Shown here: positions 8,483 to 48,295 of the stretch, in pieces | Layout of the letters: each line of letters opens with the position of its first letter | How positions within the stretch are numbered: position 1 is the stretch's first letter | Assembly: GCA_902560315.1 (NCBI GenBank) | Contig: CACELG010000004.1 | Location: 8,038-72,037 of the forward strand | Length of the DNA stretch: 64,000 nucleotides | Origin: an uncultured SAR86 cluster bacterium | GTDB taxonomy: Bacteria; Pseudomonadota; Gammaproteobacteria; Magnimaribacterales; D2472 | Direction: 5' to 3' | Made by a program: the position numbers and the translations under genes | The notes under the pieces: generated by a model | The model's input: the letters and a program-made list of their open reading frames with translations, nothing else | Database searches by the model: none | Told to the model about the DNA's origin: nothing

Positions 8483-8962
8483 TTATTCGAATGATATTTC
8501 CTGTATATCTTTAAATTTACCGGTGATATCTCTTTTTGAAACTATAAAAGATGATGGTTCTATATGAAGTGGTATTGCTATTTCAACAATAGCTGAGCTA
8601 ACAGGACCTCCCATATGTTTTCTATCTTCATAACCAATATGTTGATAAGTTGCATAAAAGGGATTTCCTATCCCAATTGCATAAAGGTATTTATTATCCT
8701 TGCCAAAAACTTTAATAGCATAAGTATCATCATCACTTAAAAATTTTATTTTTTTTAGTAATCTTTCATTTGGTTTATCAACCTTAATTTTTTTTATAGA
8801 GAAGTTGCTTGGAGAACCATCAAAAGAAATAATATAAGCATCATTAAATGGATTTGCATGAATTTTATTAAGTTTTTGCTTATCAATGACTTCATTTGAT
8901 TCGACTGACCAAGATAAACTAAATATCACTGTAAAAAATACTATATTTTTTTTGATTACCAT
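8483..8962 (-). CDS. Secreted hypothetical protein, translationally coupled to the M64 peptidase
   Basis: N-terminal signal sequence; 7-nt overlap with the upstream gene; beta-rich, with a GNPF...IAIP pattern. Confidence 0.6.
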   Translation of the reverse strand: MVIKKNIVFFTVIFSLSWSVESNEVIDKQKLNKIHANPFNDAYIISFDGSPSNFSIKKIKVDKPNERLLKKIKFLSDDDTYAIKVFGKDNKYLYAIGIGNPFYATYQHIGYEDRKHMGGPVSSAIVEIAIPLHIEPSSFIVSKRDITGKFKDIQEISFE

Positions 8963-11007
8963 CTTTCCCAGTTTATCCCCCAGGTTCCACCCATTGGACC
9001 ATTGATATACCCATAATCATATTGCGTTCTGTCAGTTGGATTAGTACCCCACTGCTCAGAATTATAATCATACCAATAAAAATCTGAATTAAATAAACCT
9101 TCATAAAAATCATCGGTATCTGTCACATCGTCTGGCGCCGTAACTGTTCCTGTTAAGTCATCAACTCGCCAAGTATAAACCTTAACAGAATTATCAGATG
9201 GTCTATTAAAAGTAATTTGGGTTTGATTTTCTAATGTGGGATCCTCTACTCCGTCAATATACCATTTTAATCTTAATTTTGATGAATCATATGCAACATC
9301 TATATCAATATCAAAACCTGTTCTTGATCCGGCATCATCTGAAATAAAACCTACATCATCTCCATAAACAAAACCTTGATTATGAATTGAACCAATTGCA
9401 AACCCCTCAACATTAACTTCACCATATTGATCAGTATTAACTTCCATAATTGTTAAAAATTTTGGTCTGTAATTATCGAATTCACCATAATAGTTTCCTT
9501 CAAATAAACCAACTTGATTACACATTGGATTTCTTCCAGTTCTATTTCCATTTGCATCATAAACGTTATAAAGACAATCACATGCAGTTGGATCATCATC
9601 ATCGTCGTCATAAAGTCCAACCGTCCCATCTGACCAGTTATAGCAAACGTTAAAAGTACTTCCAGCAACATTTGTTAAATCGTCAATATGATGTTTCCAT
9701 TTTACTTGGGATGGATCTGACTGGGTTGTTGTATTGACATTCCTATCTGCCCAGAAACTAACATCTCTGTCATCATCTGATATATATTCATCGCCCATTT
9801 CGCCATGAGCATGTCCAAGCTCATGCATAAGAACATATTCAGTTCTTGTACCAATTGGTTGAATATTGGTATTTCCTAAATTTACACCTCTGCCATCAAT
9901 CATTGTTAATACAGAGACAAGATCATTTTCTGAAAATAATTCATCAAATACTGATGTATTGATATCGCTGGAACCAATGCAATAAACATCTTCATCCCAG
10001 TCATAACATCCTGTTTCGATTGAAGCTAATGAAGTGCCATCAGGGTTTACAGGCTCTGCAACAATAATATCAAAATATCCTGCAAAAAATTCTGATACAT
10101 CAGAGTCATTAAGACCGTTAATTGACCTTAGCAAGGCATCTCTAAAATTTTCTAAATCAGAATTTGTTCCATTTGTCGGACTTTCTTCTAATGAATCAGC
10201 TACAAATAAATAATCAGTTCTTCCAAAAGATGCATCACCTCCAACAAGATAATAAACATAATAATCTTTATCAGTAGTTGTTCCAGAGTCAAAACCATCG
10301 CTTTTATCATCATCCATTGGAACTGTTACAATTTTTTTGTCAGCAATGAACCACGAATTGAATGTATCTGAACTTACAAGATCTCCATCTGATACTTTAA
10401 GTTCTGCACTTAATAATCCAGCATTAATTAAACCTGATAAATCAAGAGTTACTTCTCCAGTTCCTTCACCAGTGGAAACAAATGAAGTTGGAATATCTTC
10501 TTGATTTACACTTGCAGAAAAAACTAAATCAATATCATCATTATCAACATCTGAGAATGTTATTGAATATTTTGGATTAGATTCAAAGATTAAGTTGTTT
10601 TTATCTAAATTTGTCTTTGATGTCATTAAAATTTGAGGACTATCATTTACTGCGTTAACTGTAATAGAAACTGTACTACTTCTAGTTATATTTTTTTCAG
10701 AAGCAGTAACTGAATATGTAAATTCATCTTGTCCAAAAAAATTAGTATTCGGAGTGTATGAAATTGCAGCATTGATAGTAGAAAAAGTAAGAGTTCCATT
10801 AGAAGTTGAACTGGTTAAAGAATATTCAAGTGTAACGACTTCATTGGCACTTGCTGCCATCGATCCATTATAAGAAGTATCTTCATTGGTTGAAAATGTA
10901 TTTTGAGCAAGTGTTAAAGCAAAGGGTACTTTTGCGCCGCCTCCTCCACCTCCTCCACCACATGAAGAGATAATGATTGCAATCAATAATAATTGTTTCA
11001 AACGCAT
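8956..11007 (-). CDS. Surface lipoprotein with cadherin-like/Ig (Big_9-type) repeats and an M64 (IgA-peptidase-like) zinc metallopeptidase domain
   Basis: Lipobox IISSC-GGGGGG; TNEDT...YTPNTNFFGQDEFTY...VNAVND cadherin-like repeat; VLMHELGHAHGEMGDEY (M64-type HExxH...DEY); VGLFEGNY...YRP...IM. Confidence 0.8.
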   Translation of the reverse strand: MRLKQLLLIAIIISSCGGGGGGGGAKVPFALTLAQNTFSTNEDTSYNGSMAASANEVVTLEYSLTSSTSNGTLTFSTINAAISYTPNTNFFGQDEFTYSVTASEKNITRSSTVSITVNAVNDSPQILMTSKTNLDKNNLIFESNPKYSITFSDVDNDDIDLVFSASVNQEDIPTSFVSTGEGTGEVTLDLSGLINAGLLSAELKVSDGDLVSSDTFNSWFIADKKIVTVPMDDDKSDGFDSGTTTDKDYYVYYLVGGDASFGRTDYLFVADSLEESPTNGTNSDLENFRDALLRSINGLNDSDVSEFFAGYFDIIVAEPVNPDGTSLASIETGCYDWDEDVYCIGSSDINTSVFDELFSENDLVSVLTMIDGRGVNLGNTNIQPIGTRTEYVLMHELGHAHGEMGDEYISDDDRDVSFWADRNVNTTTQSDPSQVKWKHHIDDLTNVAGSTFNVCYNWSDGTVGLYDDDDDDPTACDCLYNVYDANGNRTGRNPMCNQVGLFEGNYYGEFDNYRPKFLTIMEVNTDQYGEVNVEGFAIGSIHNQGFVYGDDVGFISDDAGSRTGFDIDIDVAYDSSKLRLKWYIDGVEDPTLENQTQITFNRPSDNSVKVYTWRVDDLTGTVTAPDDVTDTDDFYEGLFNSDFYWYDYNSEQWGTNPTDRTQYDYGYINGPMGGTWGINWERW

Positions 11008-11022
11008 AACTTAATTATATAT

Positions 11023-11051
11023 AAAAAAAGAGGGACTAAGCCCTCTTTTTT
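11023..11051. terminator. Bidirectional-type stem-loop between the TonB receptor and the M64 gene
   Basis: AAAAAAAGAGGG-ACTAAG-CCCTCTTTTTT. Confidence 0.75.
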
Positions 11052-11068
11052 ATTTTCATTATTTTACC

Positions 11069-14029
11069 TTAAAACTTATACCTAAAGCCTAATCTGTGAA
11101 TTGGGCCATGATCTTGAGATAAGAATAACATCTCTTCATATCTTGCATATAATCTTGTTGGTTCATCATTTAAATTCTGAACTTCAAAGAAAACTACTGC
11201 GTCTTCATTTATGTTATAGGCCATTGACAGATCCCATTGGTTTCTTTCTTCAACATATAAAGGCTGATCATAGTTACCAAAACCTGCAATAGTCTCACCT
11301 CTAGTATTTAAAGCAATTCTTGCTGTAATTTTTGTATCTTCGTAGAAAAGAGAAAAGTTACTTGAATCACCTAAACCAGGTAATATGAATTGACGGCTTG
11401 TATCATATCGATCAATCTCAACATCACCACCAGATACAAATGTTGCATTAATCTGAGTACCAAAACCAGAATCTCCAAAGAGATGCTGTAACACAACCTC
11501 AAAACCATCAACCGAACCAGATTCTAAGTTTAGAGGTCTTGTAATTTCGAAGATTGCTAATGGATCAGAACTTGTACCATCTAAATAACCAGGCTCACAT
11601 CTCCACCAACCATCATAATCACATGCACCGTATGGGAAACCATTTGTAACATCAATTCCTCTAGACATTGCTACAGCAACCCAACCCATATGTTGATATA
11701 TATTCATCCATGATTGAGCCCATAAAGCTTGCTGAGAAACACAATCACCTGATCCCCATTCACCTGGGAATCCTGGATCAGGTCTACCAGCTTGATCCCA
11801 TGCCTGAACACATGCCTGAGCAAAGGCACCAATTTCTCCATTAGCTGGATTAGTTAAAGCATCGATACTTCCAGTTGAAACATCAGAACTAATAAAGTTA
11901 TCAATATCTTTTCTAAAGTAATTTAATGAAAAATAACTTCCTTCATCATAATAATATTCATAAGCTATATCTAAATTTTCAGACTCTAATGGTTCTAAAC
12001 CAGGGTTGCCACCTGATGCAGTTGGTATTAAATAATCTCTATTACCAAATTGAAACGAACTTCTTAGATCTTGTAGAGATGGTCTACCCATTGATTTACC
12101 ATAACTAAGTCTTAACACCTGATCATCAGTTAATTCGTATGCCATTGCTAGTTGAGGTAAGACAATATCGTTACTTCCAGATCTTGCAGCAGCGACCTCA
12201 CCACCATTAGGATAAATGAGTCCATTTATCATATCCCATCTAATTACAGACGGAGTTGCTTCAAGAGCCGTTGAAGTTGTATTAGACTCTTCATACCGAA
12301 CTCCTGCAACAACATTAAGGGGTTTATTGTTAATCATAAACTCCATATTTACCTGAATAAATGCTGCATCAAGGGTTTCTTCAACCATATCATTCACATC
12401 AATTGGTCCAGCGCTAATATCTCCGAAATTTGCTATCCAATCTGCCAGAGCAAGATCTTTATTAATAGCAAAATAATATGCAGGTAAACTAGGATTATCT
12501 CTAAAAGCACTCATAAAACCATCTAGAGAAGTTCTTGTTAACATTGCGCTACTTGCTGCAGTTCCAGGCGTAGCGTTATTAATCTCCTCCATTCTAATAT
12601 CATGAAAAACTGAATCAGCTCTTGAAACTCCAAATTCTACCGATTTTATTGATTCACTAATTTTGCCATCTAAATTTTCCCATAAACCTTTAAATTGAAA
12701 CTGTTCCATTTGGTTCTCTTTAAATGCGTCTCTATAATAAAGAGAGCCATATGTATAATCATCTGTATCGAAAGTTCTATCGTATATGAAAGAATTTATT
12801 CCAGATGTTCCTCCATTAAAATGAGTAATGGTTGCAGTTGCAGGAGCAACTAATCCCATCTCATTTGGCAATTCAGTTCCTTCTTTTTCTGCAGACGAAT
12901 CATGATAATCAAGAACGAAAGTTAGAGCATCTGAGTAATTCCATTCTAAATTTAAACCAACAGATTGATTTAGGTTTTCAGTATCGCCCCATATCAATTG
13001 GTGATCGTATCCTCTATCACCAACAGTGACATCTGTATAAACACCATTTTCATTAATTGTTCCAAGTGTTGTTGTCCAACCACCCAGCCAAGATCCAAAC
13101 ATTTGACCTACTGAACTAAATTCAACTTTTGAATATGTGTAATCAACTGTAGCAATTAAATCATCTGAAAATGAATACTGCATGGTTAATTGAGCATTGG
13201 TTCTTTCTCTATCATTTTCTTTAATCTGATATGCTGATGGTTCTTGATAAAAAGTTTTACCATCTGCTCTTTGATTGTTATCTGTAATACCTGCAGCAGT
13301 TTTATCAACTCTTGAATATCCTTCAATTGCTGCCATATCTTCTACAGATAACCAGTTTGATTCTCTTGTTCCTTCTTCTATATTATTCCTATCTTGGAAG
13401 GATCCTGATATTGCAAAACCAAAGTTACCAAAATTAGAACTATGAACAAAATTTACTTCAGGTTTTAGGTCTTCATTGCTTGTTGAGTCATTAAGAACAT
13501 CAACAGAAAAAGAGCTAAGGCTTCCATCAATCGATAATGGTTTTGTTGTAACCATATTTATAGTTGATCCTATACCGCCTGAGGGTAATGAGCTATTAGT
13601 TGATTTATAAACTTCAACAGCTGCAATACCATGGGAAGATATGTCTCCAAAATTGAAAGATCTTCCGCCGCCCCATTGTCCAGGGACAGTAGGCATTTGA
13701 CGACCGTTAAGTGTAACTAAATTTAACTCAGGGCCAAATCCTCTAACAGCAACTCTTTCACCCTCAACGTTACTTCTATCAATACCAATACCAACGACTC
13801 TGGCTAAAGATTCTGCTAAATTGTTATCTGGAAATTTACCAAAATCTTCAGCAGTAATAGCATCAACAACACCGACGTTATTTCTTTTAATATCAATTGC
13901 GCTTATAAGACTTTTTTTGATTCCAGTTACTACAACCTCTTCAACATCGTCGTCCGATTCATTATCTTGAGCGATAACAATAAACGACATTGGTAATACC
14001 AATAATAATGATAATAAATACTTATTCAC
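11069..14029 (-). CDS. TonB-dependent outer-membrane receptor
   Basis: Signal peptide; TonB box EEVVVTG; plug VVDAITAEDFGKFPDNNLAESLARVVG, VTLNGRQ; C-terminal RLGFRYKF. GTG start with GGGGG RBS. Confidence 0.96.
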   Translation of the reverse strand: MNKYLLSLLLVLPMSFIVIAQDNESDDDVEEVVVTGIKKSLISAIDIKRNNVGVVDAITAEDFGKFPDNNLAESLARVVGIGIDRSNVEGERVAVRGFGPELNLVTLNGRQMPTVPGQWGGGRSFNFGDISSHGIAAVEVYKSTNSSLPSGGIGSTINMVTTKPLSIDGSLSSFSVDVLNDSTSNEDLKPEVNFVHSSNFGNFGFAISGSFQDRNNIEEGTRESNWLSVEDMAAIEGYSRVDKTAAGITDNNQRADGKTFYQEPSAYQIKENDRERTNAQLTMQYSFSDDLIATVDYTYSKVEFSSVGQMFGSWLGGWTTTLGTINENGVYTDVTVGDRGYDHQLIWGDTENLNQSVGLNLEWNYSDALTFVLDYHDSSAEKEGTELPNEMGLVAPATATITHFNGGTSGINSFIYDRTFDTDDYTYGSLYYRDAFKENQMEQFQFKGLWENLDGKISESIKSVEFGVSRADSVFHDIRMEEINNATPGTAASSAMLTRTSLDGFMSAFRDNPSLPAYYFAINKDLALADWIANFGDISAGPIDVNDMVEETLDAAFIQVNMEFMINNKPLNVVAGVRYEESNTTSTALEATPSVIRWDMINGLIYPNGGEVAAARSGSNDIVLPQLAMAYELTDDQVLRLSYGKSMGRPSLQDLRSSFQFGNRDYLIPTASGGNPGLEPLESENLDIAYEYYYDEGSYFSLNYFRKDIDNFISSDVSTGSIDALTNPANGEIGAFAQACVQAWDQAGRPDPGFPGEWGSGDCVSQQALWAQSWMNIYQHMGWVAVAMSRGIDVTNGFPYGACDYDGWWRCEPGYLDGTSSDPLAIFEITRPLNLESGSVDGFEVVLQHLFGDSGFGTQINATFVSGGDVEIDRYDTSRQFILPGLGDSSNFSLFYEDTKITARIALNTRGETIAGFGNYDQPLYVEERNQWDLSMAYNINEDAVVFFEVQNLNDEPTRLYARYEEMLFLSQDHGPIHRLGFRYKF

Positions 14030-21430: not shown

Positions 21431-22315
21431 TTAATCTCTAGATGTAAAATCAGGCATAAATTCTTTATTGTCGCCTACGTAGAATGTCCAACCATGATAA
21501 ACATCTGGAACTTCTGAGCAGGTTGCAAATTCACTAAATAAAGGAAACATTTCGTCTCTGACATCATTTTCAAATGATTCAGTTGCTTTATCCATTGCAT
21601 CTTTACCCTTTGTAAAATTACCCCAAAGAAAATCAACATCAGCATCTACATGAGAGCCATCTTCATTTTTATATGCAAAATAATTAGCAAATGAATAACC
21701 AGTTCCATTATAGTCAGAATTACTTACTGCATTAGTAAAACCAGGTAAAAATGCTTCAGCATCAGTTCTACCAGACTCATCAATATAATTACATTGATAG
21801 AATTCAGCATAAAAATATCCACTTTCATTAACATCGCCATATGTATTGGGTAAAATTGGATATACGCCGTCAAAAGAGTTTCTTCCTTCTCCATCACAAA
21901 CCATTACATTAGAATATTGTTCAGCCCATGCTTGCGCATCTTTATTTTGAACCCAGGCATTCCACTCAGCATCTGCTTCTTCTTTTGAGTTCCAATTTAA
22001 TTCCCACCATAATGTATCTCCAAATGCATTTGTGTCAGCTGCAGGAACGTATCCCCAAACACCAAATAATGACTCTGCAGTAATTAATTTCTGCCAATCT
22101 GATATCATCTTAGTTGCATTTTCAGCATTAAAATCTGCTCCAGCTTCACAAGCCATAAATTCTGCAAAAGCTTTACCACCTGTGCTTTCTAGTGCATCTA
22201 CAAATTCTGAATAGCTATTATCTTCTGCTGTAGGTTCAACAGCCATCTCATTTGAACAACTCGCAATGAAAAAAGCACCCAGTACACCAGTTATTATTAA
22301 TTTATTTTTAAACAT
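21431..22315 (-). CDS. Hypothetical lipoprotein with two tandem NIPSNAP/ABM-like domains
   Basis: Lipobox FIASC; repeats AEFMAC...LWW...VMVCD and AEFYQC...DFLW...FATCS. Confidence 0.6.
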   Translation of the reverse strand: MFKNKLIITGVLGAFFIASCSNEMAVEPTAEDNSYSEFVDALESTGGKAFAEFMACEAGADFNAENATKMISDWQKLITAESLFGVWGYVPAADTNAFGDTLWWELNWNSKEEADAEWNAWVQNKDAQAWAEQYSNVMVCDGEGRNSFDGVYPILPNTYGDVNESGYFYAEFYQCNYIDESGRTDAEAFLPGFTNAVSNSDYNGTGYSFANYFAYKNEDGSHVDADVDFLWGNFTKGKDAMDKATESFENDVRDEMFPLFSEFATCSEVPDVYHGWTFYVGDNKEFMPDFTSRD

Positions 22316-42670: not shown

Positions 42671-44458
42671 TTATTTTTCCGAGTTAAAATAATTTAAAAA
42701 CGCATCTTGTGGGATAGACACCTTCCCTAGTTGCTTCATTTTTTTCTTACCTTGTTTTTGTTTTTCAAGTAATTTCATTTTCCTTGTTACATCTCCTCCA
42801 TAAAGTTTTGCAGTAACATTCTTTCTATAAGCTTTAACAGTTTCTCTAGATATAATTTTAGCACCTAAGGCTACCTGAATTGGAACATCAAACATCTGTC
42901 TAGGTATTAATTTTTGAAGATTCTTTGCTATTTCCCTTGCTTTGGATGTTGAGAATGATTTATGAACTATCATTGATAAGGCATCAATTTTATTATTATT
43001 AATTAATACATCTATTTTAGTTAAATCAGATTTTTGAAACCCAATCAAAGAATACTCTATAGATGCGAATCCTTTAGTAGATGACTTAATCTGGTCAAAA
43101 AAATCAATTATTACAGAAGATAATGGCATCTCAAAAACAATAGATACCTGATTACCAAAATATTTCATGTCTTTTTGAATTCCTCTTTTTGAAGTACAAA
43201 GTGTAATAATATTTCCCACATATTCATTTGGAGAAATAATTGTAGTATTAACTATCGGTTCTCTAATTTCATCAATCTCATTTGGGGTTGGTAATTGTGA
43301 TGGATTATCACATTTAAGAATTTCGCCATCTGTTTTTAATACCTCATATTCAACTGAAGGAGCCGTAGAAATTAAATCAAGATCATATTCTCTTTCAAGC
43401 CTCTCTCTGACAACCTCCATATGAAGTGTACCTAAAAAGCCACACCTAAAGCCAAAACCCAGAGCATCTGATACTTCTGGTTCATAAACCAGTGAACTAT
43501 CATTTAATACTAGTTTTGAAAGAGCATCTCGAAATTTTTCATAATCATCAGAATTTAAAGTAAATATTGAAGCAAAAACTTTAGGGTTAACTCTCTTAAA
43601 GCCAGGTAATGCCTCTGTGCCTTCATCATTTGCATCTATAAGAGTATCTCCGACCGGTGCGCCTTTAATATCTTTAATGCCTGCAACTAGATATCCTACC
43701 TCACCGGCAAATAACTCACCTTTAGAAACCTTTTTGGGAGAAAAAATTCCAATATCATCAACAATGTGAGATTGATTATTTGAATGGATTTTAAACTTTT
43801 GTCCTTTTTTTATTTTTCCATTTTTAATTCTTATTAATGAAACAACACCAAGATAAGAGTCAAACCATGAATCGACTATTAAAGCTTGTAATTTAGAATT
43901 AGACTCGCCTTCTGGACATGGTATATCAGAAATTAATTTATCTAATAATATATCCACTCCTTCGCCTGTTTTGGCGCTTACTAATGGTGCCTCATTTGCA
44001 TTAATTCCGACCATTTCTTCTATTTCATCCTTAACCCGATCAGGCTCAGCTTGAGGAAGATCAATTTTATTAATAACTGGCACAACCTCTAAGCCTTCTT
44101 CCACTGCTGTATAACAATTTGCCAAGGTTTGAGCTTCTACTCCTTGAGAACCATCAACAACTAATAACGCCCCTTCACAAGCTGACAAAGATCTGGAAAC
44201 TTCATATGAGAAATCTACATGACCAGGAGTATCTATAAAATTTAAAAGGTATTTAACACCGTCTTTTTCGTAGTTTAGTGATACTGCTTGAGCTTTAATT
44301 GTAATCCCTCTCTCTCTTTCAATGTCCATAGAATCTAATATCTGATCCTCCATCTCCCTTGATGAAAGTCCACCACAAAATTCTATCAACCTATCAGACA
44401 GGGTTGATTTCCCATGATCAATATGGGCTATCACAGAAAAATTTCTAATATTCTTCAT
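42671..44458 (-). CDS. lepA: Elongation factor 4 (LepA)
   Basis: [51 protein letters not shown]. Confidence 0.98.
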
Positions 44459-44511: not shown

Positions 44512-45915
44512 CTAATTAAGGGTTATTGAGGTAATTAGTCTGCTTCCATTTCTTATTAAATGAATGGCTATCTTATTTCCAGATGAAAAATTATTTAGTG
44601 CTTCATTAAATGAATCAACACCATTAACATCGAACTTTTTGCCCTTATACTGAATCATTGTAATTATGTCGCCTCTATCTACCTTTCCTGAAGCAGCTGA
44701 GTTTGGATTTACCCTTGAAACAATTACACCATCTGGCATATTTGCCATAGATGGATTATCACGATCAATATCTACGACTTTTAATCCAATTGGATCCGAT
44801 GAAGACTGAGTCTTGGCAGGAATAAACGTTTCATTGTTTATAGGAAGTTCGCCAAGAACAAAATCAAGAGAGATTTGTTTTCCATCTCTGATAACTTTTG
44901 CAGATGCTCTTGAATCAGGTTTAATCTGACCAACAACATGAGGAAGATCGGAACTAAATTTAATTTCTTTGTTGTCAAATTCAATAATGACATCACCAGG
45001 AACTAATCCAGCCATATCAGCAGATTCACCTTCTTCAACGTCATTAATTAATGCTCCGTAGGGTTTCATCATACCAAGCGCGTCGGCTAAATCACTATCT
45101 ACTTCACTCATTCGAACACCAAGATAGCCTCTTGAAACTTCACCACTATTGATAATTTGATCAGCTACGTCTATAGCAACATTTATAGGTATAGCGAATG
45201 CCAAGCCCTGATATCCCCCACTTCTTGAATAAATTTGTGAATTTATACCAACAACTTTCCCTTCTAAATTAAATAAAGGTCCTCCAGAGTTACCAGGATT
45301 AATAGCTACATCAGTTTGAAGAAAAGGAACATAATTTCCAATATTATTATTTTGGATGCTTCTTCCCTTAGCACTAACTATTCCAGCAGTTACTGAGAAG
45401 TCAAAACTAAATGGCGATCCAATTGCAATTACCCAGTCACCTACCTTTAATTCATCACTATTACCAACATCAACGGTTGGTAAATTCTTTCCTTTTACTT
45501 CTAAAACAGCAAGATCAGACAACTGATCAACTCCAATTATCTCAGCAATATATTCTCTTCTATCTGATAAAGATACGACAACTTCTGTAGCGTCTTCAAC
45601 AACATGAAAATTAGTCATAATATAGTTATCTTTTAGAATAAAACCAGATCCATATGAGACTGCTTCTCTTTTTTGTTGAGGTGCATCCCTAAATTCTCTC
45701 GGTATACCAAATCTTTCTAACATTTCATCTGGTATTCCGCCATATCCGTATGAGGATCTTTGTGATACCTCTTTCTTTGCAGTTATATTTACAACTGCAG
45801 GTGCAGAACTATCAACTAGTTCTGATATGTTTTCTGGTAAATTTCCAAAGACATAATTAGATGATGTAATTGCAAAAAACAGAATTATTAAGCCTTTATT
45901 TAAAATTTTATACAT
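44512..45915 (-). CDS. degP: DegP/MucD-type serine protease with two PDZ domains
   Basis: GSGFI, TNFHVV, DLAVL, QTDVAINPGNSGGPL. Confidence 0.92.
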   Translation of the reverse strand: MYKILNKGLIILFFAITSSNYVFGNLPENISELVDSSAPAVVNITAKKEVSQRSSYGYGGIPDEMLERFGIPREFRDAPQQKREAVSYGSGFILKDNYIMTNFHVVEDATEVVVSLSDRREYIAEIIGVDQLSDLAVLEVKGKNLPTVDVGNSDELKVGDWVIAIGSPFSFDFSVTAGIVSAKGRSIQNNNIGNYVPFLQTDVAINPGNSGGPLFNLEGKVVGINSQIYSRSGGYQGLAFAIPINVAIDVADQIINSGEVSRGYLGVRMSEVDSDLADALGMMKPYGALINDVEEGESADMAGLVPGDVIIEFDNKEIKFSSDLPHVVGQIKPDSRASAKVIRDGKQISLDFVLGELPINNETFIPAKTQSSSDPIGLKVVDIDRDNPSMANMPDGVIVSRVNPNSAASGKVDRGDIITMIQYKGKKFDVNGVDSFNEALNNFSSGNKIAIHLIRNGSRLITSITLN

Positions 45916-45921
45916 TTTTAA

Positions 45922-46605
45922 TTACTTATTTGCTGATTCAGCTATGCTCAAAGCTGATGAAAGTGAAATATTACCATAGAGCGTTAAAACTCTTCCATCA
46001 TTTAACGGAACTAAATAAATCATTTTATTTCCGTGTTTCCAATATCTTATTTGTTTAATACCAAAATTCTTATTTTCTATACGTAATTGGAAGCTCTCAT
46101 TTCCTTTTGAATGAATATAGCCATTATCTGAGTTACTTTTATAACCAACATTTTGGAGGTCTAGTGGATTCTTTGATGACATGTAATTTGGGTCATTAAT
46201 AATATTCATTATGTGATCTGCAAGATATTCATTCGATTTTTCAGCGGTGTTCTTGGCTTCTTTGCTATTTATTGCAGACGAAATCTGCTTTGATGAACTG
46301 ATATTTATATCCATTCTAGAAAAATCGACGTTATTTATAAATGTTAAAGTTAACAATACAGATGCTGCAGCGGTTAATGCATTTGTGAACCATATGTTTG
46401 AAAAAGCATTCTTAATATTCTTCTTAGTATCTAGCGCAATAACATTACTTGATTGCTGACCTACAGCAGCTCCTATAAGGCTATACATTGAAATTTGTTT
46501 CTGTAAGCTCTTATCTTTATTAATAATATCAATTAACTCATCAACCTCAGCAGCATTTAACTCACCATCATATAGAGCTGAAAGTTTTTCATTTATTTCA
46601 TTCAT
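45922..46605 (-). CDS. rseA: Anti-sigma-E factor RseA/MucA with a C-terminal RseB-like domain
   Basis: EKLSALYDGEL...YSLIG N-terminus, a TM segment (ALTAAASVLLTLTFI), EYLADH, then a C-terminal TLYG...A.SIAES pattern. Confidence 0.8.
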   Translation of the reverse strand: MNEINEKLSALYDGELNAAEVDELIDIINKDKSLQKQISMYSLIGAAVGQQSSNVIALDTKKNIKNAFSNIWFTNALTAAASVLLTLTFINNVDFSRMDINISSSKQISSAINSKEAKNTAEKSNEYLADHIMNIINDPNYMSSKNPLDLQNVGYKSNSDNGYIHSKGNESFQLRIENKNFGIKQIRYWKHGNKMIYLVPLNDGRVLTLYGNISLSSALSIAESANK

Positions 46606-47173
46606 TTGTAATAAGCTCCTTTTGCATAAAATCTATAATAGACTCTCTTGCTCTAAATATTCTTGAACGAACAGTTCCAATTGGAGTGTCTGTTATAACA
46701 CTTATATCTTCATAACTTCTTCCTTCGACCTCTCTTAAAGTAAATGCTGTTTTAAGAGATTCTGGCAATGTATTAATAAAATTTTTTATTTCATTTAAAG
46801 ATTGTTTATGAATTACAGCAGATTCTATATCCTCAAATGAGCTAATATCAATTTCAGCTTGCTCAATAGAAGTATTTATTTTTTGTTTTTTATATCCAGA
46901 ACTAGCTACAAAATTTTTGGCTAAATTTATTGCGATCCTGTAAACCCATGTAAAGAATGCGCTATCGCCTCTAAATGAATCTAGTTGTTGCCATACTTTT
47001 ATAAAGGTTTGTTGAGATAAATCTTCAGAATCTTCTTTTGATTTTGTAAAAGAAAATAATGTTGCATATACTCTCGGATAGTATTTATTCACTAGTATGC
47101 TAAATGCTCCTTTGTTACCATTTTTTGCTTTTTCTATTAAAACGGAATCAATATCATCTGAATTTTTTTTCAT
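46598..47173 (-). CDS. rpoE: ECF sigma factor RpoE/AlgU
   Basis: AFSILVNKY, FRGDSAFFTWVYRIAIN, AFTLREVEG.SYEDI, PIGTVRSRIFRARE. Confidence 0.95.
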   Translation of the reverse strand: MKKNSDDIDSVLIEKAKNGNKGAFSILVNKYYPRVYATLFSFTKSKEDSEDLSQQTFIKVWQQLDSFRGDSAFFTWVYRIAINLAKNFVASSGYKKQKINTSIEQAEIDISSFEDIESAVIHKQSLNEIKNFINTLPESLKTAFTLREVEGRSYEDISVITDTPIGTVRSRIFRARESIIDFMQKELITNE

Positions 47174-47194
47174 GTAATTATGTTTCCTATGCCT

Positions 47195-47222
47195 TCTGAC
47201 AAGAAATATACTTAAAAGTTTC
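47195..47222 (-). promoter_or_regulatory. Autoregulatory sigma-E-type promoter of the rpoE operon
   Basis: Minus strand GAAACTT-N16-TCAGA, matching the GAACTT-N16/17-TCnRA consensus; overlaps the sdhE stop codon. Confidence 0.75.
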
Positions 47223-47469
47223 CTTGTTTTGAAAATGTTTTTAAATTTTTATTAATAAAGTCTTCGTGTTGTTTATTTCCTAGAGACTCGTTTTTAAATA
47301 TAAAATCATACAACTTTTGATCATCATAGTTTAAGATTTCATCAAATACTGATAAGTCATCACTGCTTAATTTTTTAATAGAAGTTAAAGAAAACTCTCT
47401 TAACAAAAGATCAATCTCTCTCATGCCTCTTCTGCACTTCCAGTTAATTCTGTTTATTTCATCATTCAT
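47212..47469 (-). CDS. sdhE: FAD assembly factor SdhE
   Basis: WKCRRGMREIDLLL...F..IL...DQ.LYDF. Confidence 0.92.
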   Translation of the reverse strand: MNDEINRINWKCRRGMREIDLLLREFSLTSIKKLSSDDLSVFDEILNYDDQKLYDFIFKNESLGNKQHEDFINKNLKTFSKQGNF

Positions 47470-47503
47470 TGGTTAAAATAAAGTTTTACATCATAGATTT
47501 TAC

Positions 47504-48295
47504 TTGAAAACAGATATTCATAATAATTTAATAGAATTTGGAACACATCATATAAATGATTGGTGTGCATTAAATGTTGTTGGTGATTTAATAAAAGTAG
47601 AAGAGTTTCTTCAAGGTCAACTTACTTCTGATATCAGTATAATGACTAATAATACCTCCCAGCTATCGTCTATCTGTAATGAGAAGGGCCAGGTTATAGC
47701 TGATTTTATAACATACAAACTAGACAATAAATTTAAAATAATAATTAAAAAGACCTGTGTAGAGCTCTTTAAAGAGGAATTAGCTCCATTTGCAAAGTTT
47801 TTTTTTACAACATTTGAATTATCAGACGACAAAATCATTGGCAAAGTATCAAAAAAAGATAATTCTATGCCTTGCTATAGTTCAAACGATCTTTTTCAGA
47901 CTTCAATAGAGCTAAATAGCAATGAATTAAGTCAAGGAAATTCAATAAGTTATGAAAATTGGATCGTTGCGCATAAGTTATTGGGTATTTTCTTTCTTAA
48001 TAAAGAAGATTCTGGAAAATATAGACCTTTGGAGATAAATTTTGACAATTTAAGAGTTTCTTTTGAAAAAGGTTGCTATAGAGGACAAGAAATAGTTGCA
48101 AGAATGAAATACCTAGGAATCAATAGAAGAAAATTTTGTACATTTACAACAGAGAATGATTTCAATGAATTTTCAAAGATCAAAATTTTAGGTGAAACAA
48201 TTAAACTTAAAGAAAAAAAGATATTTAATGCTATTGTGAAAAGAGACGAACTGGATGAAATTAAAAAATTATCTGGCATTATTGATATTTACTAA
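47504..48295 (+). CDS. ygfZ: Folate-binding Fe-S/tRNA-modification protein YgfZ
   Basis: FLQGQLTSD, CNEKGQV, SFEKGCYRGQEIVARMKY. Confidence 0.9.
   Translation: MKTDIHNNLIEFGTHHINDWCALNVVGDLIKVEEFLQGQLTSDISIMTNNTSQLSSICNEKGQVIADFITYKLDNKFKIIIKKTCVELFKEELAPFAKFFFTTFELSDDKIIGKVSKKDNSMPCYSSNDLFQTSIELNSNELSQGNSISYENWIVAHKLLGIFFLNKEDSGKYRPLEINFDNLRVSFEKGCYRGQEIVARMKYLGINRRKFCTFTTENDFNEFSKIKILGETIKLKEKKIFNAIVKRDELDEIKKLSGIIDIY

What the first reader, a model, noticed from the sequence alone, without database searches (positions are those of the whole stretch)
45922..46605. RseA fused to the C-terminal domain of RseB: a rewired sigma-E stress switch
Seen: the operon is rpoE-rseA-degP with no rseB or rseC. 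After the RseA N-domain, TM and EYLADH segment, residues ~146-227 (45922-46170) read LQNVGY...HSKGNESFQLRI...KHGNKMIYLVPLNDGRVLTLYGNISLSSALSIAES. This parallels the RseB C-terminus as I recall it (WLPQGF...YSDGLFSFSVNV...RTGRRTVSTSVRDNAEITIVGELPPQTAKRIAEN). Established: RseB's small C-domain grips the periplasmic tail of RseA and blocks its cleavage, while its large LolA-like N-domain senses LPS. Inference: the protective domain is tethered in cis and the LPS-sensing domain has been discarded, giving a one-protein anti-sigma module with a different input. An autoregulatory sigma-E promoter is retained.
Basis: partly seen in the sequence, partly recalled or inferred. Interest (0 to 1): 0.7.

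Follow-up and report, generated by a model that had tools for sequence, protein, structure and literature searches.

The report
SAR86 anti-sigma-E with RseB-like tail
In the abundant marine bacterium SAR86, the membrane protein that holds the envelope-stress sigma factor in check ends in a small domain that most resembles the RseA-gripping half of its usual partner RseB, while no separate rseB gene sits in the operon, so two regulators may have merged into one.

Summary
ORF 45922-46605 (-) encodes a 227-aa RseA-type anti-sigma factor. It lies between rpoE and a DegP/MucD protease gene, with no rseB or rseC. The window is from a SAR86 cluster bacterium, and all 32 SAR86 genomes recovered share this gene order.

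Residues about 148-227 form a conserved domain of six strands plus a C-terminal helix.

Evidence that it resembles the RseB C-terminal domain:
- Two AlphaFold models give E. coli RseB and P. aeruginosa MucB as the best PDB matches (prob 0.97-1.0, but E about 0.04).
Shuffled and 54 unrelated controls score E 0.04 or worse.

Evidence that weakens this:
- HMMER finds no RseB.
- Pfam hits are below threshold and favour DUF4367 over MucB_RseB_C.

The homology is therefore remote: well indicated, not proven.

Not tested: cis-binding of the preceding helix, loss of LPS sensing, and genome-wide absence of rseB. The rpoE-rseA-mucD order without rseB is already known in Xanthomonas and Stenotrophomonas.

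Verdict: partly supported. It is a new variant of a known system, found only in SAR86-type contexts and in every SAR86 locus recovered. Interest is moderate.

The parts
47195..47223 (-). Sigma-E/AlgU-type promoter-like motif, GGAAACTT-N16-TCAGA. It overlaps the sdhE stop codon (47212-47214) and lies 22 nt upstream of the rpoE ATG.
   Evidence: Read from the sequence. The GGAAACTTTT and TGTC blocks sit at identical spacing in 28 of the 29 SAR86 loci examined; L025 reads GGCAACTTTT. Part of the -35 block is also coding sequence for SdhE, so only the TGTC block is independent evidence. It resembles the Xanthomonas consensus GAACTT / TCTCA (PMC4229105). No transcription start was mapped.
46598..47173 (-). 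rpoE, an ECF sigma factor of 191 aa
   Evidence: Pfam Sigma70_r2 and Sigma70_r4_2. The best NCBIfam match is TIGR02939 RpoE at E 4.5e-52, which is below the equivalog cut-off.
45922..46605 (-). RseA-type anti-sigma-E factor with an RseB-C-like C-terminal domain (227 aa plus stop codon)
   Evidence: More than 1000 homologues of 215-233 aa were found, all with this same architecture.
46396..46605 (-). Cytoplasmic anti-sigma domain, residues 1-70 (RseA_N)
   Evidence: Pfam PF03872 at E 8.4e-9, 36.3 bits against a cut-off of 24. hhalign to E. coli RseA residues 3-51 gives E 8e-5.
46327..46392 (-). Single transmembrane segment, residues 72-93 (WFTNALTAAASVLLTLTFINNV)
   Evidence: A hydrophobic stretch in the sequence. 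AF2 predicts a helix at 76-91. The TAAA motif is invariant in the family.
46195..46263 (-). Periplasmic amphipathic helix, residues 115-137, containing EYLADH. It is the candidate counterpart of RseA/MucA helix alpha-I.
   Evidence: AF2 predicts a helix here; in the periplasmic model, pLDDT averages 75 for window residues 120-129 and 89 for 130-139, with pTM 0.72 for the construct. A conserved S-x-E-A ... L-x-x-H-(V/I)-(M/L) pattern is present. Sequence similarity to E. coli alpha-I is not significant.
45925..46164 (-). C-terminal periplasmic domain, residues 148-227, RseB-CTD/DUF4367-like. It has six beta-strands and a terminal helix.
   Evidence: Foldseek ranks RseB and MucB chains first for two separate models. 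hhalign gives E 2.9e-5 to RseB 224-313, with controls. DUF4367 hits 14 of 15 members and MucB_RseB_C hits 3 of 15, all below threshold. It is the most conserved soluble part of the protein.
44512..45915 (-). degP/mucD-type periplasmic serine protease (467 aa, trypsin domain plus two PDZ domains). Its start codon is 6 nt after the rseA stop.
   Evidence: NCBIfam TIGR02037 Do-family at 431.8 bits, above the cut-off of 416.2. Pfam Trypsin_2 and PDZ_2 x2.
42671..44458 (-). lepA, followed by lepB, rnc, era and recO. This is the canonical downstream neighbourhood of rpoE-rseABC in Gammaproteobacteria.
   Evidence: E. coli has the same order, rpoE-rseA-rseB-rseC-lepA-lepB.

Best explanation
This is the sigma-E/anti-sigma-E envelope-stress module of a SAR86 bacterium, in a compacted form.

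The anti-sigma factor keeps four canonical features: the RseA N-terminal sigma-binding domain, one membrane span, a juxtamembrane stretch, and a conserved periplasmic helix. After that helix, the usual disordered RseA tail is replaced by a small six-stranded sheet plus helix. This domain belongs to the RseB C-terminal-domain/DUF4367 kind.

The most likely origin is a deletion within an ancestral rseA-rseB(-rseC) operon. The deletion would have removed the RseA tail, the RseB signal peptide, the LolA-like lipid-binding N-domain and rseC. It joined the RseA-gripping half of RseB to RseA in frame.

Inferred mechanism: the tethered domain folds back on the preceding helix, as RseB-CTD binds RseA helix alpha-I in trans. 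This would turn the periplasmic part into a compact, protease-resistant cap. Sigma-E release would then depend on a site-1 protease overcoming or unfolding this cap, without the separate LPS-displaceable RseB checkpoint.

Shown: the domain architecture, conservation, synteny, and the remote profile and fold similarity to RseB/MucB CTD. Inferred: origin by fusion, cis-binding, the protective role, and loss of the LPS input.
For: - Anti-sigma identity: RseA_N is above the Pfam threshold.
- Gene order: rpoE-X-degP-lepA, with 8-nt and 6-nt junctions.
- Synteny: identical in all 32 SAR86 genome loci and in the deepest relatives found.
- Absence nearby: no RseB, MucB or RseC similarity in the window or in about 570 kb of SAR86 loci.
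- Fold: the AF2 periplasmic model has pLDDT 81 and pTM 0.72, with a helix, six strands and a helix. Foldseek ranks 1-9 are all RseB/MucB chains (prob 0.97-1.0, 60-78 columns, rmsd 2.7-6.6 A, below 3.5 A for most, 17-22% identity). The full-length model gives RseB or MucB at 10 of the top 11 ranks.
- Which RseB domain is matched: no LolA or LolB structures appear in the lists, so the match is to the RseB-specific C-domain. This is an inference.
- Profile comparison: hhalign gives E 2.9e-5, prob 74%, over 77 columns onto RseB 224-313. Controls are negative.
- Deep members of the family carry W-[IVL]-P-V-G-F, closer to RseB WLPQGF and MucB WLPPGF.
- Conservation: the C-domain is the best conserved soluble region, at 0.49 mean pairwise identity against 0.36 for the N-domain.
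- Literature: the MucA/RseA alpha-I to CTD contact is the universal primary binding determinant (PMC7400510).
- Reality of the ORF: it is intact, without indels, in independent marine metagenomes, and metatranscriptome contigs touch it.
Against: - No Pfam model reaches its gathering score on the C-domain. The window protein gives no MucB_RseB_C hit even at E<=10.
- Across 15 relatives, DUF4367 hits 14 (best E 2.7e-5) and MucB_RseB_C only 3 (best E 3.6e-3).
- The HMMER profile against all PDB sequences does not find RseB or MucB.
- A C-domain profile search of 1.84 billion representative proteins found no RseB-length protein, so no intermediate links it to a bona fide RseB.
- Foldseek E-values (0.03-0.1) are above its usual significance level, and hhalign probability is below 90%.
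- The helix is not significantly similar to E. coli RseA alpha-I.
- Helix-to-domain contacts could not be examined.
- In RseB the cleavage-site region of RseA is buried by the N-domain, which is absent here, so protection is not a given.
- Absence of rseB elsewhere in the genome was not tested.
Confidence: 0.55

Rival explanations
1. The C-terminal domain is a DUF4367-family sensor or protein-interaction domain. On this reading it was acquired, or retained from an older anti-sigma architecture, independently of rseB. It binds an unknown periplasmic ligand or partner rather than the protein's own helix. RseB was simply lost, as in Xanthomonas-type rpoE-rseA-mucD operons.
For: DUF4367 is the most frequent and strongest Pfam hit: 14 of 15 members, best E 2.7e-5, and 20.6 bits against a cut-off of 22.1 for the window protein. 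E. coli RseB-C and MucB-C do not hit DUF4367 at all, so by HMMER the two families are distinct. Operons with rpoE-rseA-mucD and no rseB exist elsewhere. The near-invariant surface motif RYWKHGNK-IYLVPL-DGR--T-YGN is more conserved than a purely structural role requires.
Against: The hits cover only the C-terminal half of the DUF4367 model and stay below threshold. The best solved-structure matches are exclusively RseB and MucB. The profile-profile alignment covers the whole RseB CTD. The domain sits exactly where rseB is expected. DUF4367 accompanies a LolA-like domain in B. subtilis SsdC (bioRxiv 10.1101/2025.01.13.632879), which parallels the RseB N-domain plus C-domain arrangement. The two families may therefore be one superfamily, and the two readings may not exclude each other.
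Confidence: 0.25
2. The resemblance to RseB is convergent or generic, reflecting a small antiparallel sheet plus helix. On this reading the SAR86 tail is a lineage-specific periplasmic domain of RseA with no evolutionary or mechanistic link to RseB.
For: All similarity measures lie in the twilight zone: 18-22% identity, Foldseek E about 0.04, hhalign probability 74%, and a negative HMMER result. Roadblock/LC7-type alpha/beta domains follow closely in the Foldseek list.
Against: Out of 350,542 PDB chains, the top ranks are taken by the one protein family that is the known partner of RseA and the expected neighbour gene. This holds for two independent models. The sequence alignment is collinear over the whole domain and includes the W/L-x-P/N-x-G-F, Y-S-x-G-x-x-F and G-(E/N)-x-x-x-x-x-A-x-x-I-A motifs. 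Shuffled, reversed and 54 unrelated controls all score far lower.
Confidence: 0.12
3. The ORF is an assembly or gene-calling artefact, for example a frameshift that merges rseA with a decayed rseB.
For: Merged products do occur in databases. P0329 is a 462-aa product with RseA_N, RseA_C, MucB_RseB and MucB_RseB_C domains in an E. coli-like contig.
Against: The same 215-233-aa architecture occurs in more than 1000 non-redundant proteins and in 32 SAR86 species genomes, at 41-95% identity and with strong purifying selection on the tail. Independent metagenome contigs show no indels. No remnant of the N-domain is present; only 6 nt separate the stop codon from degP.
Confidence: 0.01

Closest known systems
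E. coli RseA/RseB (rpoE-rseA-rseB-rseC; PDB 2P4B, 2V42/2V43, 3M4W)
   Same: The ECF sigma-E gene is followed by, and translationally coupled to, a single-pass anti-sigma factor with an RseA_N domain. lepA-lepB-rnc-era-recO lie downstream. The SAR86 tail aligns with RseB residues 224-313 and has the same six-strand-plus-helix composition as the RseB CTD.
   Different: There are no separate RseB or RseC genes, no LolA-like lipid/LPS-binding N-domain, and no detectable RseA_C region. The RseB-like domain is covalently attached after the periplasmic helix. Identity to RseB-CTD is only about 18-22%.
P. aeruginosa AlgU-MucA-MucB-MucC-MucD (PDB 6IN8, 6IN9, 6JAU)
   Same: The operon ends in a DegP-type protease (MucD) placed before lepA. 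MucB chains are among the top structural matches. MucA helix alpha-I binding to the MucB CTD is the primary contact (PMC7400510).
   Different: mucB and mucC are absent as genes. Only a CTD-like module remains, and it sits inside the MucA-like protein.
Xanthomonas campestris / Stenotrophomonas maltophilia rpoE-rseA-mucD operon
   Same: The three-gene order is the same, with no rseB. The operon is autoregulated from a GAACTT / TC-N-N-A type promoter (PMC4229105).
   Different: I could not check whether their RseA carries an RseB-C-like tail. No Xanthomonadales protein was hit by the SAR86 C-domain profile at E<=1e-3.
Pfam DUF4367 (PF14285) proteins, e.g. B. subtilis SsdC (LolA-like domain plus DUF4367)
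   Same: DUF4367 gives the strongest HMMER similarity to the SAR86 tail, although sub-threshold. In SsdC, DUF4367 accompanies a LolA-like domain, just as RseB-CTD accompanies the RseB N-domain. From my own recollection, untested here, DUF4367 also occurs at the C-terminus of zf-HC2 anti-sigma factors of Firmicutes.
   Different: The hits cover only half of the model and are below the gathering score. The anti-sigma domain here is RseA_N rather than zf-HC2, and the organism is a diderm gammaproteobacterium.

Membership tests
RseA/MucA anti-sigma-E factors | N-terminal RseA_N anti-sigma domain (PF03872) | tested here: met
   E 8.4e-9, 36.3 bits against a cut-off of 24, residues 5-69. hhalign to E. 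coli RseA residues 3-51 gives E 8e-5.
RseA/MucA anti-sigma-E factors | Gene immediately downstream of rpoE, with a single membrane span | tested here: met
   There is an 8-nt overlap with rpoE. A hydrophobic segment at 72-93 is predicted helical.
RseA/MucA anti-sigma-E factors | RseA_C periplasmic region (PF03873), including the RseB-binding helix alpha-I | tested here: not met
   No PF03873 hit at E<=1. hhalign of the helix region against the E. coli RseA periplasmic domain gives E 0.84. A helix exists at the equivalent position, but its equivalence is only positional.
RseA/MucA anti-sigma-E factors | Sequential cleavage by DegS/AlgW and RseP | not testable with these tools
   No degS or rseP was seen in the parts of the window that were annotated. 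The rest of the genome was not available.
RseB/MucB C-terminal domain (PF17188) | Match to the family HMM above the gathering score | tested here: not met
   The window protein gives no hit at E<=10. Three of 15 relatives hit at E>=3.6e-3, and P0239 reaches 13.8 bits against a cut-off of 30.1. True RseB and MucB CTDs score 86-102 bits.
RseB/MucB C-terminal domain (PF17188) | Profile-profile similarity over the whole domain | tested here: inconclusive
   hhalign gives E 2.9e-5 and prob 74% over 77 columns onto RseB 224-313. Controls score E>=0.036. The result is clearly above background but below the usual 90-95% probability. The RseB profile had low diversity (Neff 1.9).
RseB/MucB C-terminal domain (PF17188) | Fold: six-stranded antiparallel sheet plus a C-terminal helix, superposable on solved RseB/MucB CTD | tested here: inconclusive
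   The AF2 model has six strands and a terminal helix at pLDDT 83-94. The top Foldseek PDB hits are all RseB or MucB (prob 0.97-1.0, rmsd 2.7-3.5 A over 60-72 columns), but E is 0.04-0.13. The tool does not report which RseB residues were aligned.
RseB/MucB (whole protein) | Secreted two-domain protein with a LolA-like N-domain (PF03888) that binds lipid/LPS | tested here: not met
   There is no N-domain, no signal peptide and no separate gene. No tblastn similarity was found in the window or in 32 SAR86 loci.
RseB/MucB (whole protein) | Binds the periplasmic helix of RseA and inhibits site-1 cleavage | not testable with these tools
   Model coordinates and PAE are not returned. Only indirect hints are available: pTM 0.72, and pLDDT averaging 75 and 89 over window residues 120-129 and 130-139 of the helix.
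DUF4367 (PF14285) | Match to the family HMM above the gathering score | tested here: inconclusive
   The isolated tail scores 20.5-20.6 bits against a cut-off of 22.1 (E 7e-4). Fourteen of 15 relatives hit, best E 2.7e-5, but only model positions about 52-109 of 110 are covered.

The most novel reading that the evidence does not exclude
SAR86, one of the most abundant bacterial lineages of the surface ocean, may have collapsed the two-protein RseA/RseB checkpoint into one polypeptide. The RseA-gripping C-domain of RseB would be tethered in cis as an intramolecular cap, and the LPS-sensing N-domain discarded. Sigma-E activation would then run on a single input, or on a new ligand read by the invariant RYWKHGNK...DGR..T.YGN surface, rather than on the OMP-and-LPS AND gate of E. 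coli. This would be a natural minimal design of a regulated-proteolysis switch, produced by genome streamlining.
Probability: 0.35. Interest if true: 0.7.

Novelty: new variant of a known kind. Interest (0 to 1): 0.55.

Why it matters
The RseA/RseB/DegS/RseP cascade is the textbook example of regulated intramembrane proteolysis with two-signal integration (unfolded OMPs and off-pathway LPS).

A natural RseA carrying only the RseB C-domain in cis would do three things:
- It would separate the anchoring function of RseB from its lipid-sensing function.
- It would show how a streamlined genome simplifies an essential stress switch.
- It would give a compact, single-chain construct for structural and biochemical study of how RseB-type domains control site-1 cleavage.

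It also corrects the annotation of a protein family of more than 1000 sequences whose tail is currently unannotated. Finally, it bears on envelope-stress sensing in an uncultured lineage that is a major component of ocean bacterioplankton.

Tried and rejected
- Direct HMMER routes failed to link the tail to RseB. These were Pfam at E<=10 on the window tail, phmmer of the protein against PDB (only spurious RecA-repeat hits), and hmmsearch of the periplasmic profile against PDB (only chance hits to glutamate receptors).
- A C-domain profile search of 1.84 billion representative proteins found only the same architecture of about 215-233 aa plus fragments. It found no RseB-length intermediates.
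- I tried to build a diverse RseB profile. The metagenome scan returned only E. coli gut contigs. The last protein search returned only Enterobacteriaceae at 79% identity or more. The RseB profile therefore had Neff 1.9, which limits hhalign probability.
- Equivalence of the EYLADH helix with RseA alpha-I was not significant.
- Distant family members were scanned for stronger Pfam hits. None exceeded threshold.
- I tested whether RseB and MucB CTDs hit DUF4367. They do not, so the relation between the two Pfam families stays open.
- Literature searches for SAR86 with RpoE or anti-sigma, and for natural RseA-RseB fusions, found nothing relevant.
- The artefact explanation was rejected on conservation and on independent assemblies.
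- rseP and degS were not found in the annotated parts of the window. This says nothing about the rest of the genome.

Full report
**What is there**

The window has about 32% G+C. It comes from a SAR86 cluster gammaproteobacterium. The anti-sigma protein is 95% identical to that of single-cell genome AG-343-G10, and all 32 genome loci recovered carry SAR86 or unclassified Gammaproteobacteria MAG titles.

On the minus strand the genes run as follows:
- sdhE, 47212-47469
- rpoE, 46598-47173
- the 227-aa ORF of the finding, 45922-46605
- a Do-family DegP/MucD protease, 44512-45915
- lepA, lepB, rnc, era, recO

rpoE and the ORF overlap by 8 nt. The ORF's stop codon and the degP start codon are 6 nt apart. 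There is no space for rseB or rseC, which in E. coli lie between rseA and lepA.

**The protein**

- Residues 5-69 match Pfam RseA_N above threshold (E 8e-9).
- Residues 72-93 are a hydrophobic span.
- The remaining 135 residues are periplasmic.
- No RseA_C match exists.

More than 1000 database proteins of 215-233 aa share the whole architecture. The deepest relatives found by a C-domain profile search of 1.84 billion representatives sit in the same ung/ygfZ/sdhE/rpoE/X/degP/lepA context. The architecture therefore appears confined to SAR86-type lineages, and it is present in every SAR86 locus recovered. No RseB-length protein was hit.

Across 37 representatives, the C-terminal domain is the best conserved soluble part: 0.49 mean pairwise identity, against 0.36 for the sigma-binding domain. 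It carries a nearly invariant RYWKHGNK-IYLVPL-DGR--T-YGN block.

Independent marine metagenome contigs reproduce the ORF without indels. Two metatranscriptomes contain small contigs that overlap it.

**Is the tail RseB-like? Evidence for**

- *First model.* An AlphaFold model of the full protein was confident only in the periplasmic part. Its best real PDB matches were E. coli RseB (2P4B, 3M4W, 2V42/43) and P. aeruginosa MucB (6JAU, 6IN9).
- *Second model.* A model of residues 100-227, built on a more diverse alignment, reached pLDDT 81 and pTM 0.72. It shows a long helix (115-137), six strands and a terminal helix. Foldseek ranks 1-9 were all RseB or MucB chains. Probability was 0.97-1.0 over 60-78 columns, rmsd was 2.7-3.5 A for most hits, and identity was 17-22%.
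- *Which RseB domain is matched.* No LolA, LolB or LppX structure appears in the lists. The match must therefore be to the RseB-specific C-domain rather than to its LolA-like N-domain. This is an inference, because the tool does not print the aligned residues. MucB-CTD is described as a six-stranded sheet, a small two-stranded sheet and one helix (PMC7400510), which fits.
- *Profile comparison.* hhalign of the SAR86 C-domain (37 sequences) against an RseB/MucB alignment gives E 2.9e-5 and probability 74%.
- *Controls.* Reversed and ten column-shuffled templates give E 0.09-0.6. Among 56 single-sequence targets, RseB is the best non-self hit (E 9e-5) and the next best is 0.036.
- *Deep family members* read W-[IVL]-P-V-G-F where RseB has WLPQGF and MucB has WLPPGF.

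**Is the tail RseB-like? Evidence against or limiting**

- HMMER never links the tail to RseB at significance.
- Pfam MucB_RseB_C is hit by only 3 of 15 members (best E 3.6e-3). DUF4367 is hit by 14 of 15 (best E 2.7e-5), always just below its cut-off and over only half of the model.
- Genuine RseB and MucB CTDs do not hit DUF4367.
- Foldseek E-values of about 0.04 are not significant on their own.

I conclude that the tail belongs to an RseB-CTD/DUF4367-like kind of domain, with RseB/MucB CTD as the closest solved structure. Strict family membership is unproven. DUF4367 accompanies a LolA-like domain in B. subtilis SsdC (bioRxiv 10.1101/2025.01.13.632879). That mirrors the two-domain layout of RseB and suggests the two Pfam families may be one superfamily. 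I could not test this.

**Origin and mechanism**

The position of the gene, the missing rseB, the retained periplasmic helix and the RseB-CTD-like tail are most simply explained by an in-frame deletion in an ancestral rseA-rseB(-rseC) operon. No intermediate sequences were found, so this remains an inference.

MucA/RseA helix alpha-I binding to the CTD is the universal primary contact. However, RseA residues 142-151, around the DegS site, are buried in the pocket of the N-domain, and lipid A binds the N-domain (PMC7400510). A cis-tethered CTD could therefore clamp the helix and rigidify the periplasmic region. Whether that protects the site-1 cleavage site is open.

The helix (residues 115-137) has a conserved S-x-E-A...L-x-x-H-(V/I)-(M/L)-x-(V/I)-(I/L) face and high model confidence. 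This is compatible with packing on the domain. Its similarity to E. coli alpha-I is not significant (E 0.84), and contacts could not be inspected.

**Promoter**

GGAAACTT-N16-TCAGA lies at 47195-47223 (-). It overlaps the sdhE stop codon and sits 22 nt before rpoE. The GGAAACTTTT and TGTC blocks keep the same spacing in 28 of the 29 loci examined, and L025 reads GGCAACTTTT. The motif resembles the Xanthomonas sigma-E consensus. Part of the conservation is confounded by SdhE coding sequence.

**Comparison and novelty**

The rpoE-rseA-mucD order without rseB is known in Xanthomonas and Stenotrophomonas (PMC4229105), so that part is not new. I found no report of an RseA-type anti-sigma factor ending in an RseB-C-like domain. 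The family's tail is unannotated in the databases.

I rate it a new variant of a known kind, of moderate interest. It is attractive for specialists in envelope stress and in genome streamlining. The key mechanistic claims are still inferential, and the genome-wide absence of rseB is untested.

Noticed in passing
window 47173-47503: The arrangement here is very compact. ygfZ (47504-48295, +) and sdhE (47212-47469, -) diverge from a 34-nt spacer. sdhE ends 38 nt before rpoE, and the sigma-E-type promoter overlaps its stop codon. The pairing of sdhE and ygfZ next to rpoE is conserved in all SAR86 loci that reach that far upstream.
   Followed up: partly
P0329, P0258, P0255: Three E. coli-like database proteins look like merged neighbouring genes. 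One is 462 aa with RseA_N, RseA_C, MucB_RseB and MucB_RseB_C domains. One is 404 aa with RseB plus RseC domains. The third is 419 aa. They are probably frameshift or gene-calling merges of overlapping genes, not real fusions.
   Followed up: no
P0249: This 170-aa metagenome protein has an unrelated, membrane-protein-like N-terminus. Its last 34 residues are a SAR86 RseA C-domain end (KNIFLIPLSNGRLLTLYGNISPKSAVMIAKTIK). It is likely a chimeric contig.
   Followed up: no
window 45137-45269 (degP): One metagenome contig (run X6) skips 131 nt inside degP. Several contigs break at about 45270-45290. This suggests strain-level variation or a repeat-like assembly breakpoint in the protease gene.
   Followed up: no
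window 8956-14029: A 986-aa TonB-dependent receptor (11069-14029, -) is followed by a 683-aa protein with Big_9 and M64-peptidase-like domains. That protein has a lipoprotein-like N-terminus with a poly-Gly run (8956-11007, -).
   Followed up: no
window 21431-22315: This 294-aa ORF on the minus strand has no Pfam family at E<=1e-5.
   Followed up: no
window 45925-46164; alignment A2/A4: The block RYWKHGNK(M)IYLVPL-DGR--T(L/I)YGN is almost invariant across SAR86 at 41-95% overall identity. This is far more conserved than the corresponding RseB segment (RTGRRTVSTSVRDNAEITIVGE), which hints at a specific binding surface.
   Followed up: partly
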